From the NCBI RefSeq assembly GCF_009914755.1, contig NC_060934.1: a DNA stretch of 64,000 bases; one strand, 5' to 3'. The translations under genes and the position numbers were made by a program. Position 1 is the stretch's first letter. The number at the start of each line of letters is the position of its first letter. The notes below the pieces were generated by a model. The model saw only the letters and a program-made list of their open reading frames with translations, was not told the DNA's origin and did no database searches. Source of the DNA: the human T2T-CHM13v2.0 reference genome, Homo sapiens. Below are positions 16,431-19,169 of the stretch, in pieces.

Positions 16431-16989
16431 TTGAACTGCCATCATCATAGTTGCTTCAGGTTGATCAAGCCTCAGGGAGAACTCCTCTGTTATGTCTAGA
16501 TGATTCTACAGTACTGATTCAAAAGCATTCTAATAAAAGTGGGTGAAAATTTAGTAAAACAAAATTTTGTATTTTAGCAACTTTCTCTGTTTTCTAAAGA
16601 CATGATGTTTCCTGTTAGTACACCCACAATTTATTATACGAAAGAGCAAGGAATCCCCTCCCTTATGGGAGCCAAGATGGTCAAGAGGATGTATTTAATC
16701 TTGCTGATTTCTGGAGGGCAGCTGTACCCTTTTCCCAGGCTTATCTCCCCCTCCTGGGAAGGACCCATCCCACCGTGCACCCTACCCCTGCTTGGGAGAG
16801 AAGGTGCCATCAGAGCTCCTCTGATGCCTCTCCCTCTTGCCCATTTGTTCACCTGCTACTCTCCCAGCTTGGCAGCACTGTTTCGAGACCTTTGCATTCT
16901 GTAGACCCAGAAGCCCTCATGTCACAGCAGAGACAACACAAGTTGGCCATACATTATAGAGCTCTTCTCTTTGGTGCGATCTCAGGACA

Positions 16990-18254
16990 ATTTTCTTTTT
17001 TCTTTTTCTTTTTTTCTTTTATTATTATTATACTTTAAGTTTTAGGGTACATGTGCACAATGTGCAGGTTAGTTACATATGTATACATGTGCCATGCTGG
17101 TGTGCTGCACCCATTAACTCATCATTTAGCATTAGGTATATCTCCTAAAGCTATCCCTCCCCCCTCCCCCCACCGCACAACAGTCCCCAGAGTGTGATGT
17201 TCCCCTTCCTGTGTCCATGTGTTCTCATTGTTCAATTCCCACCTATGAGTGAGAATATGTGGTGTTTGGATTTTTTGTTCTTGCGATAGTTTACTGAGAA
17301 TGATGATTTCCAATTTCATCCACGTCCCTACAAAGGACATGAACTCATCATTTTTCATGACTGCATAGTATTCCATGGAGTATATGTGCCACATTTTCTT
17401 AATCCAGTCTATCATTATTGGACATTTGGGTTGGTTCCAAGTCTTTGCTATTGTGAATAGTGCCGCAATAAACATACGTGTGCATGTGTCTTTATAGCAG
17501 CATGATTTATAGTCCTTTGGGTATATACCCAGTAATGGGATGGCTGGGTCAAATGGTATTTCTAGTTCTAGATCCCTGAGGAATCGCCACACTGACTTCC
17601 ACAATGGTTGAACTAGTTTACAGTCCCATCAACAGTTTAAAAGTGTTCCTATTTCTTGACATCCTCTCCAGCACCTGTTGTTTCCTGACTTTTTAATGAT
17701 TGCCATTCTAACTGGTGTGAGATGGTATCTCATTGTGGTTTTGATTTGCATTTCTGTGATGGCCAGTGATGATGAGCATTTTTTCATGTGTTTTTTGGCT
17801 GCATAAATATCTTCTTTTGAGAAGTGTCTGTTCATGTCCTTCGCCTACTTTTTGATGGGGTTGTTTGTTTTTTTTCTTGTAAATTTGTTTGAGTTCATTG
17901 TAGATTCTGGATATTAGCCCTTTGTCAGATGAGTAGGTTGTGAAAATTTTCTCCCATTCTGTAGGTTGCCTGTTCACTCTGATGGTGGTTTCTTTTGCTG
18001 TGCAGAAGCTCTTTCATTTAATTAGATCCCATTTGTCAATTTTGGCTTTTGTTGCCATTGCTTTGGTGTTTTAGACATGAAGTCCTTGCCCACGCCTATG
18101 TCCTGAATGGTAATGCCTAGGTTTTCTTCTAGGATTTTTATGGTTTTAGGTCTAATGTTTAAGTTTTAATCCATCTTGAATTAATTTTTGTATAAGGTGT
18201 AAGGAAGGGATCCAGTTTCAGGTTTCTACATATGGCTAGCCAGTTTTCCCAGCA
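16990..18254 (-). mobile_element. 5'-truncated L1PA2-4-like LINE-1 (about 1.25 kb)
   Basis: ORF2 C-terminus, 3'UTR and T tail; colinear with ~1186-2420. TSD gatctcaggaca at 16978-16989 and 18296-18307 also encloses the 5S fragment. Confidence 0.96.
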
Positions 18255-18255
18255 G

Positions 18256-18301
18256 GTCTACGGCCATACCACCCTGAATGCGCCCGATCTCGTCTGATCT
18301 C
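18256..18301 (+). pseudogene. RNA5S: 5S rRNA 5' fragment (nt 1-46), 3'-truncated retrocopy
   Basis: gtctacggccataccaccctgaatgcgcccgatctcgtctgatctc matches human 5S nt 1-46 with one CpG transition (18279). Starts exactly at nt 1 and ends before box A. Confidence 0.96.
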
Positions 18302-19169
18302 AGGACACATTTCTACATGGTTCTTCATTTCCTGATGGTTCAGCCCTGTTTGTCTTTGTGTTGCTTTTTACCCCTTCTCAACCCACAAAATAACTCCTGG
18401 GTACATGGTTTTCTTTGCTTCCAGGAAAGCAGCCCAGATGTACGGTTACTCAGTTAAGCCAGGCCTGGCATGAAGGATTCAAAGACAGACCAGCAAATAG
18501 GCTGAGCAGAGCCTGGGCCAAGATTTTCCTGACCCAAGGGCACAGTGACACTCAATTCAGTGCTTGCATTGTGCCCAGGGCTCTAAGAAAGACAGGCAAA
18601 GAGATTTGCCAGAATCTGTCCTTGCCTGTATAGCTCTTTGTATGGAGATGTTTTTTTTTGTCCATCTGTTACCAAATCATGACTCTCCTGACAGTCAGCC
18701 TGGGTAAAGATGCAGTGGTTAGCTCCTTGTTTCTTCTGAAGGATGACATTTTCCAACATCTGCAGCCTGCATATTGAGCAAATAAATGGCTGTCAGTTCA
18801 CTCAGGGAGAAGATTCTTCATTTCTCTTGTGACCAACCTCTAGGACACATGGCAGGGCCTGAGGGCTGTCTATCCTTCTTGTTAGTAGAGCCTCCTGGCT
18901 CTCAGGCCTGCTGCGTTGTCAGGATGTTTGCAAAATCCCTTTATTGGATATAGTAGCTAATACAATGTTATCACTTGATATCACAAGTTGAGGCTATCCT
19001 TTCCCATATTTTTGAATATTTGAAAAAGTATCTTGTCTTTGGAAAAACTAGAATGTTTTATAAAAATAGACCTGTTCTGATGTCAATTTTCTGCCTGAAT
19101 AAAAGTGAATGAATATTAAACATTGCTGCAGGCAGTCTTGTCATTGGAATTAAAGATTCTCTGTTATAA

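What the first reader, a model, noticed from the sequence alone, without database searches (positions are those of the whole stretch)
16978..18314. Head-to-head 5S rRNA / L1 chimera inside one TSD: apparent twin priming in trans on a cellular RNA
Seen: a minus-strand truncated L1 ends at 18254. One G follows that neither template explains (18255), then 5S rRNA nt 1-46 on the PLUS strand. One TSD flanks both parts (gatctcaggaca, 16978-16989 and 18296-18307, probably extending to ...tttct). The first 6 nt of the right TSD (GATCTC) are also 5S nt 41-46. Known: classic small-RNA/L1 chimeras such as U6-L1 are co-oriented; twin priming normally uses the same L1 RNA; tailless retrocopies prime internally by target microhomology. 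Inference: the first nick primed on the L1 poly(A), while the second-strand 3' end (...TGAGATC-3') annealed to 5S rRNA and copied it to nt 1, and the two cDNAs were then joined. One event would thus have used two different RNAs from opposite DNA ends, implying 5S rRNA was at the integration site. I cannot tell whether this locus or class is already catalogued.
Basis: partly seen in the sequence, partly recalled or inferred. Interest (0 to 1): 0.88.

Follow-up and report, generated by a model that had tools for sequence, protein, structure and literature searches.

The report
Catalogued inverted 5S rRNA/L1 chimeric insertion
A 1.3-kb piece of a LINE-1 retrotransposon and the first 46 bases of 5S ribosomal RNA, lying head to head inside one target-site duplication in an intron of KIAA1217, are a real single-event chimera, but this very locus and its class are already published.

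Summary
A minus-strand, 5'-truncated L1 with its T-rich tail runs 16990-18254. One G follows at 18255. 5S rRNA nt 1-46 follow on the plus strand at 18256-18301. An exact 12-nt duplication (16978-16989 and 18296-18307) flanks both parts, and its first 6 nt are also 5S nt 41-46.

The geometry is what twin priming on a second RNA predicts.
- The locus is a row in Table S2 of Law & Burns 2026 (Cell Genomics, PMC13174262): L1PA3, 5S:1-48, the same 12-bp TSD, flagged as arriving together in a mammalian alignment.
- That paper reports 27 5S/L1 chimeras, mostly antisense, starting at 5S nt 1 and truncated near nt 46 or 90, and suggests twin priming.
- Doucet et al. 2015 proposed the same model, with junction complementarity, for snRNA/L1 chimeras.

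I add three small points:
- The TSD probably extends to 19 bp (17 of 19 identical), which makes the cleavage site endonuclease-like.
- In the published table the 5S annotation overlaps the TSD in 18 of 23 antisense loci. This favours priming by microhomology over pre-cleaved 5S.
- The extra G is probably untemplated.

Interest is low.

The parts
16978..16989 (.). Left copy of the target-site duplication (3' TSD in L1 orientation), 12 nt exact. It probably extends to 16996.
   Evidence: Same coordinates after offset as the downstream TSD in Table S2.
16990..17020 (-). L1 poly(A) tail, seen as a T-rich run with a C every 5-8 nt on the plus strand. The first 7 nt (16990-16996) may be target-derived if the TSD is 19 bp.
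   Evidence: The 19-nt comparison gives 17 of 19 identical.
17021..18254 (-). 5'-truncated L1 (3' end of ORF2 plus 3' UTR), annotated L1PA3 in the published table.
   Evidence: 9 genomic L1 copies align at 88-95% and all stop at 18254; many 100% matches to 18200-18254. L1PA3.
18255..18255 (.). Single G at the inversion junction, probably untemplated.
   Evidence: The 5S gene has C at -1. L1 copies of the same variant group have C or T in 9 of 9; another variant group has G in 3 of 3.
18256..18295 (+). 5S rRNA nt 1-40, the part that can only have been copied from 5S RNA. It is antisense to the L1.
   Evidence: 98% to the chr1 5S genes. (that gene is a full Rfam 5S hit).
18296..18307 (.). Right copy of the TSD (5' TSD in L1 orientation). 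Its first 6 nt equal 5S nt 41-46, or 8 nt if the A at nt 47 is read as an rG:dT wobble. It probably extends to 18314.
   Evidence: Table S2 lists 5S:1-48 and the upstream TSD at the matching place.

Best explanation
This is one L1-mediated integration in an ape ancestor that used two RNAs.

Inferred steps:
1. ORF2p nicked the plus strand, probably after ...CATTTCT (window 18314/18315).
2. That 3' end primed on the poly(A) tail of an L1PA3 RNA, and about 1.23 kb was copied.
3. The other strand was cut 12-19 bp away. Its 3' end (...CCTGAGATC-3') paired with 5S rRNA nt 41-46 (up to 48 with one G:T wobble), on the 3' side of the loop C hairpin.
4. That end was extended to 5S nt 1.
5. The two cDNAs were joined, with one extra G, probably added without template.

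Shown directly: the sequence architecture, the shared TSD, the 6-nt overlap, and the uniqueness of the junction. Taken from print: the two parts appear together in the species alignment. This is the twin-priming scheme with a cellular RNA in place of the second stretch of L1 RNA. Equivalently, it is a tailless 5S retropseudogene made on the second end of an L1 insertion site.
For: - Architecture and coordinates.
- 5S identity and start at nt 1.
- 5S nt 1-40 lie between the L1 5' end and the right TSD copy. A pre-existing 5S fragment split by the L1 would instead lie left of the left copy (reasoning).
- TSD significance: 1 of 5000 controls reaches 12 nt.
- The junction is found once in the genome among scored candidates.
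- Published row for this locus: same TSD, found_by_msa_prediction = 1.
- Class features in print: of the 27 5S/L1 chimeras in the catalogue, most are antisense, start at nt 1 and are truncated at 46 or 90, and twin priming is suggested.
- Same model with junction complementarity for U5, U1, U2 and U6.
- My count on the published coordinates: the 5S annotation overlaps the upstream TSD by 1 nt or more in 18 of 23 antisense loci and by 3 nt or more in 13 of 23.
- Stand-alone tailless 5S retropseudogenes with TSD microhomology were seen in this genome (L012-L014).
Against: - No orthologous empty site could be inspected here. The single-event claim rests on the shared TSD and on a flag in a published table, not on an alignment I saw.
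- With the 12-bp TSD the cleavage site (TG/TGTC) is not endonuclease-like. The 19-bp version needs two adjacent mismatches, and part of its similarity is T-rich low complexity.
- 5S nt 41-42 and 45-46 are paired in the Rfam consensus structure; only nt 43-44 are bulged. The annealing site is therefore not a plain single-stranded loop.
- The inversion junction shows an extra base, not the microhomology often seen in classic twin priming.
- The order of the two priming events cannot be read from the sequence.
Confidence: 0.85

Rival explanations
1. Capture of a 5S-derived cDNA or double-stranded fragment by end joining. A 5S cDNA made elsewhere was ligated between the truncated L1 cDNA and the target end during repair of the 5' junction, without priming from the target overhang.
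For: 5'-truncated L1 junctions are often healed by end joining with microhomology or extra bases (background text of Kojima 2010). An extra G sits at the L1/5S junction.
Against: A single-stranded 5S cDNA has the same polarity as the target 3' end, so the 6-nt identity could not guide their joining. The strong orientation bias (23 of 27 antisense) and frequent overlap of 5S with the TSD (18 of 23) in the catalogue are expected from priming, not from random capture.
Confidence: 0.07
2. Retrotransposition of a pre-formed chimeric RNA. A source locus carrying antisense 5S next to an L1 3' part was transcribed through and inserted as one RNA. The 6-nt overlap would then be ordinary 5' junction microhomology.
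For: 5' transductions and chimeric L1 transcripts exist (sections listed; passages).
Against: No second copy of the junction appeared in two genome searches, though these scored only 40 of 619 and 40 of 422 candidates. The 5S piece starts exactly at nt 1 and ends at the recurrent nt 40-50 breakpoint shared by independent loci, which a read-through transcript would not explain.
Confidence: 0.04
3. Two independent insertions: a tailless 5S retropseudogene and an L1 landed side by side, and the shared duplication is a coincidence or belongs to one of them only.
For: Tailless 5S retropseudogenes are common: 555 in human according to Noll et al. 2015. Three stand-alone ones surfaced here by chance.
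Against: The 12-nt exact repeat brackets both parts precisely, and 1 of 5000 controls reaches that length. No separate TSD around either part alone appears in the repeat list. The published table flags contemporaneous arrival.
Confidence: 0.03

Closest known systems
Antisense 5S rRNA/LINE-1 chimeric insertions (Law & Burns 2026, Cell Genomics, PMC13174262; bioRxiv 2025). I read passages of the main text and the 5S sheet of Table S2.
   Same: It is this very locus: L1PA3, 5S:1-48, the same 12-bp TSD at matching coordinates. It shows the class features: 5S antisense to L1, nt 1 at the junction, truncation near nt 46, and twin priming suggested.
   Different: Nothing in kind. The table lists a 12-bp TSD with a cleavage site that is not endonuclease-like; I read a probable 19-bp TSD with an endonuclease-like site. 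The paper suggests targeted processing of 5S for the nt-46 breakpoint, and its main text has none of the words microhomology, anneal or internal priming. The overlap with the TSD points instead to annealing.
Inverted snRNA/L1 chimeras by twin priming (Doucet et al. 2015, Mol Biol Evol, PMC4476161). I read passages.
   Same: A 3'-truncated small RNA in the opposite orientation at the L1 5' end. The cleavage site fits L1 orientation. There is complementarity between the RNA and the insertion site at the junction, and truncation falls in a loop region.
   Different: Those cases are U5, U1, U2 and U6 (7 loci), not 5S.
Tailless retropseudogenes (Schmitz et al. 2004, not read; Noll et al. 2015, PMC5322556, passages read)
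   Same: A 3'-truncated 5S copy without an A tail. The breakpoint lies at a hotspot near single-stranded regions, and the target is complementary to the RNA at the 3' end. Internal priming is argued over pre-cleavage. Stand-alone examples are L012-L014.
   Different: Here the 5S copy has no TSD of its own. It shares one with an L1 and was primed from the second-strand end.
Classic twin priming of L1 (Ostertag & Kazazian 2001; known to me from citations, paper not read)
   Same: Two reverse transcriptions start from the two ends of one staggered break. The segment at the 5' TSD is inverted, with microhomology at that junction.
   Different: The second template is a different RNA. The inversion junction carries an extra base, not microhomology.
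U6/L1 chimeras by template switching or RtcB ligation (Buzdin 2002/2003 and Garcia-Perez 2007, seen only in the reference list and as in-text citations; Moldovan 2019, abstract start seen)
   Same: A small RNA is fused to the 5' end of a truncated L1 inside one TSD.
   Different: U6 is full length and co-oriented with L1. Here the RNA is 3'-truncated and inverted, so neither template switching nor RNA ligation fits.

Membership tests
Antisense 5S/LINE-1 chimeric insertion (Law & Burns 2026) | 5S segment directly at the 5' end of a LINE-1, in the opposite orientation | tested here: met
   L1 is on the minus strand and ends at 18254; 5S is on the plus strand from 18256.
Antisense 5S/LINE-1 chimeric insertion (Law & Burns 2026) | 5S nt 1 at the junction and 3' truncation near nt 46 or 90 | tested here: met
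   Alignment to the chr1 5S gene covers nt 1-46. The table lists 5S:1-48.
Antisense 5S/LINE-1 chimeric insertion (Law & Burns 2026) | One TSD around both parts, and a poly(A) tail on the L1 | tested here: met
   12-nt exact repeat, reached by 1 of 5000 controls. T-rich tail at 16990-17020.
Antisense 5S/LINE-1 chimeric insertion (Law & Burns 2026) | Both parts arrive together in the species alignment | not testable with these tools
   No primate genomes are held. The published table gives found_by_msa_prediction = 1 for this row. I did not see the alignment itself.
Antisense 5S/LINE-1 chimeric insertion (Law & Burns 2026) | L1 endonuclease motif at the first nick (met by 14 of the 27 catalogued loci, so not strictly defining) | tested here: inconclusive
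   The 12-bp TSD gives TG/TGTC, listed as No. The 19-bp TSD (17 of 19 identical) gives GT/AGAA, which meets the paper's 1T/3A rule.
Twin priming | Inverted segment next to the 5' TSD, with microhomology between the target end and the template at that junction | tested here: met
   6 nt are shared by the TSD and 5S nt 41-46, or 8 nt with one wobble.
Twin priming | Both cDNAs copied from the same L1 RNA | tested here: not met
   The second template is 5S rRNA. This is the trans variant proposed by Doucet 2015.
U6/L1-type template-switch or ligation chimera | Small RNA full length and co-oriented with L1 | tested here: not met
   The 5S piece is inverted and covers only 46 of about 120 nt.
Tailless retropseudogene | 3'-truncated RNA copy without an A tail, with target complementarity at its 3' end and its own TSD | tested here: inconclusive
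   Truncation, absence of a tail and complementarity are met. There is no TSD of its own, because the duplication is shared with the L1.

The most novel reading that the evidence does not exclude
The recurrent nt 40-50 breakpoint of 5S in these chimeras may not mark a pre-cleaved 5S half, contrary to the processing suggested in print. It may instead mark where the second-strand DNA end of an L1 integration site anneals to intact 5S rRNA at the loop C hairpin. In that case the last unambiguously RNA-templated base would vary: it falls at nt 36-45 across the 12 catalogued loci with ends at 40-50, computed as end minus overlap. The TSD overlap would then be the footprint of the primer. That would place full-length 5S rRNA, or a 5S RNP, at L1 integration sites.
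Probability: 0.5. Interest if true: 0.3.

Novelty: already known. Interest (0 to 1): 0.12.

Why it matters
As a locus it matters little. It is a fixed, intronic, ape-age insertion with no sign of function, and it is already in a published catalogue. As a class it shows that the L1 machinery can copy two different RNAs from the two ends of one break, which bears on which RNAs are near integration sites. That point is already in print. The only residual value is the hint that the overlap between TSD and 5S, here and in 18 of 23 catalogued loci, argues for microhomology priming over RNA processing. Earlier work on tailless retropseudogenes had already favoured that view.

Tried and rejected
- Rfam scans of the window did not report the 46-nt 5S fragment, only chance-level hits. 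I identified it by alignment to the genomic 5S genes instead.
- Pfam scan of three minus-strand frames of the L1 part gave 0 families in 3 of 3. L1 identity rests on DNA similarity to other copies and on the published annotation.
- I suspected that L012 on contig C8, 100% identical to window 18256-18303, might be a variant 5S source gene or a duplicate of the locus. It is a separate tailless 5S retropseudogene (nt 1 to about 91) with its own TSD. The two shared differences (nt 24 and nt 47) are at CpG sites and are best read as parallel decay.
- I considered whether the G at 18255 comes from the 5S gene's upstream flank. It does not, because that base is C.
- Earlier findings of this scan were not open to the session.
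- Primate orthologues could not be examined with any tool here.
- Supplementary PDFs of Law & Burns (mmc1, mmc6, mmc7, including Figure S3E) could not be read. They may hold the alignment profile or breakpoint plots that bear on this locus.

Full report
**What is there**

Reading window 16800-18500 shows, from left to right on the plus strand:
- unique intronic DNA;
- the 12-mer GATCTCAGGACA at 16978-16989;
- a T-rich run with a C every 5-8 nt at 16990-17020;
- the reverse complement of an L1 3' UTR and the ORF2 3' end, up to 18254;
- one G at 18255;
- a 46-nt stretch at 18256-18301;
- from 18296, overlapping the last 6 nt of that stretch, the same 12-mer again (18296-18307).

The annotation supplied with the finding places the window inside KIAA1217 with no exon in it. 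The insertion is therefore intronic.

**The 5S part**

A genome search with window 18250-18315 found the tandem array of 5S genes on contig C1 (period about 2.2 kb). These match window 18256-18301 at 98%, E 2.1e-13. One of these genes (L015) is a full-length Rfam 5S_rRNA hit of 114.6 bits against a gathering score of 38.

Side-by-side printing shows that the window carries 5S nt 1-46 with a single difference, C>T at nt 24 in a CpG. Rfam did not report the fragment in the window itself, as can happen with a 46-nt piece of a 120-nt model.

**The L1 part**

The 55 nt before the junction match many genomic places at 100%. Blastn of window 16900-18400 against nine of those copies gives 88-95% identity over about 1240-1260 nt for eight of them. 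The ninth, L008, aligns in two pieces. Every alignment ends at query 1355, which is window 18254.

Pfam found nothing in three minus-strand frames. The subfamily name L1PA3 is taken from print.

**The duplication**

- The 12-mer occurs only at these two places in the 64-kb window and heads the list of direct repeats.
- Among 5000 control pairs of a 30-nt and a 40-nt stretch at the same spacing elsewhere in the window, one shares 12 nt or more.
- Extended to 19 nt, the two copies agree at 17 of 19 positions.
- Part of that extension is T-rich, so it is suggestive only.
- If real, the first nick lies after ...CATTTCT, that is GT/AGAA in L1 orientation. This meets the 1T/3A rule of the published catalogue, whereas the 12-bp reading gives TG/TGTC.

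**The single G**

- The 5S gene has C before nt 1.
- The nine L1 copies that share the window's nearby variant have C (eight) or T (one) at the next position.
- Three of three copies of another variant group have G.

**Geometry**

With the L1 on the minus strand, first-strand cDNA is the plus strand, primed at the left. The second-strand 3' end is the minus strand ending ...CCTGAGATC-3'. Its last 6 nt pair with 5S nt 41-46. Counting an rG:dT wobble at nt 47 and a G:C pair at nt 48, 8 nt pair. This explains the published 5S:1-48.

Extension to nt 1 gives exactly the observed plus-strand 5S next to the right TSD copy. A 5S fragment already at the site would instead lie left of the left TSD copy.

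In the Rfam consensus structure, nt 35-40 are the hairpin loop C. Nt 41-48 are the 3' strand of the adjoining helix, with a 2-nt bulge. The annealing site therefore adjoins the loop and is not wholly inside it.

**Is it known? Yes.**

Law & Burns 2026 (PMC13174262; passages read; Table S2 read) list the row chr10:23866849-23868089:- L1PA3 with:
- 5S at chr10:23868091-23868138:+ (5S:1-48);
- upstream and downstream TSD TGTCCTGAGATC, 12 bp;
- cleavage site TG/TGTC, EN motif No;
- both detection flags set to 1, including the one for contemporaneous arrival in the alignment.

A single offset of 20165 between hg38 and the assembly maps the L1 end, the 5S piece and both TSD copies onto the window coordinates above.

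Their text states that 5S segments in 5S/L1 chimeras are typically antisense and truncated, with the 5S start at the junction and truncation at positions 46 and 90. Of 27 loci, 20 have 7-17 bp TSDs and 14 lie at the EN motif. They write that antisense bias may indicate twin priming.

Doucet et al. [quoted passage not shown] They noted complementarity between the snRNA and the insertion site, and truncation in a loop.

Noll et al. 2015 (PMC5322556; passages) describe 555 human tailless 5S retropseudogenes with truncation hotspots in single-stranded regions. They argue for internal priming over pre-cleaved RNA.

**What I can add**

The main text of Law & Burns contains none of the words microhomology, anneal or internal priming. 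It suggests targeted processing for the nt-46 breakpoint. From the coordinates in their 5S sheet I counted the following (coordinates copied by hand, all 27 rows used):
- 23 loci are antisense and 4 are sense.
- Among the 23, the 5S annotation overlaps the upstream TSD by 1 nt or more in 18, by 3 nt or more in 13, and by 5 nt or more in 10. The median is 3.
- The 3' ends fall at nt 40-50 in 12 loci, at 89-102 in 10, and at 80 in one.
- The 5S start is at nt 1-3 in 13.

Five loci show no overlap. The count rests on annotation coordinates, which can be stretched by chance matches, so it needs a sequence-level control.

Three stand-alone tailless 5S retropseudogenes surfaced: L012, L013 and L014. 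Each shows a TSD that runs into the 5S 3' end.

**Rivals**

- Two independent insertions are made unlikely by the shared exact TSD and by the published flag.
- A pre-formed chimeric transcript is made unlikely because no second junction was found, although only 40 of 619 and 40 of 422 candidates were scored. It also does not explain the exact start at nt 1.
- Capture of a free 5S cDNA by end joining is not excluded. It fits the orientation bias and the TSD overlap less well.

**Limits**

- I saw no primate sequence and did not see the published alignment for this locus.
- The supplementary PDFs were unreadable.

**Verdict**

The class and the locus are already catalogued. Interest is low.

Noticed in passing
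L012 (G000:C8:32537407-32537454 and about 45 nt beyond): A stand-alone tailless 5S retropseudogene (nt 1 to about 91) is inserted in another repeat. It is flanked by a 13-nt duplication whose first 6 nt are also 5S nt 86-91. It shares with the window the two CpG changes at nt 24 and nt 47, which made it 100% identical to window 18256-18303.
   Followed up: partly
L013 (G000:C11:19522003-19522054) and L014 (G000:C6:127168505-127168557): Two more tailless 5S retropseudogenes, ending near nt 88 and nt 50. Each has a 12-14 nt TSD that overlaps the 5S 3' end by about 2 nt. Neither is next to an L1 in the stretch printed.
   Followed up: partly
window 18222 and 18255, compared with L002-L010 and L023-L025: Two linked L1 variants: copies with G at the position matching 18222 have C or T after the breakpoint (9 of 9), and copies with C there have G (3 of 3). 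This is presumably a subfamily difference. Subfamilies were not assigned.
   Followed up: partly
window 16990-17020: The L1 tail is not a pure A run. It carries a G (C on the plus strand) every 5-8 nt. Such a patterned tail would pair perfectly with a primer ending ...TTTCT.
   Followed up: no
Table S2 of PMC13174262, row chr13:102407234-102408585 (not in this window): Another catalogued antisense 5S/L1 chimera (5S:5-46) has a 5-nt TSD, GAGAT, that lies wholly inside 5S nt 42-46. This is the same stretch of 5S that overlaps the TSD here.
   Followed up: no
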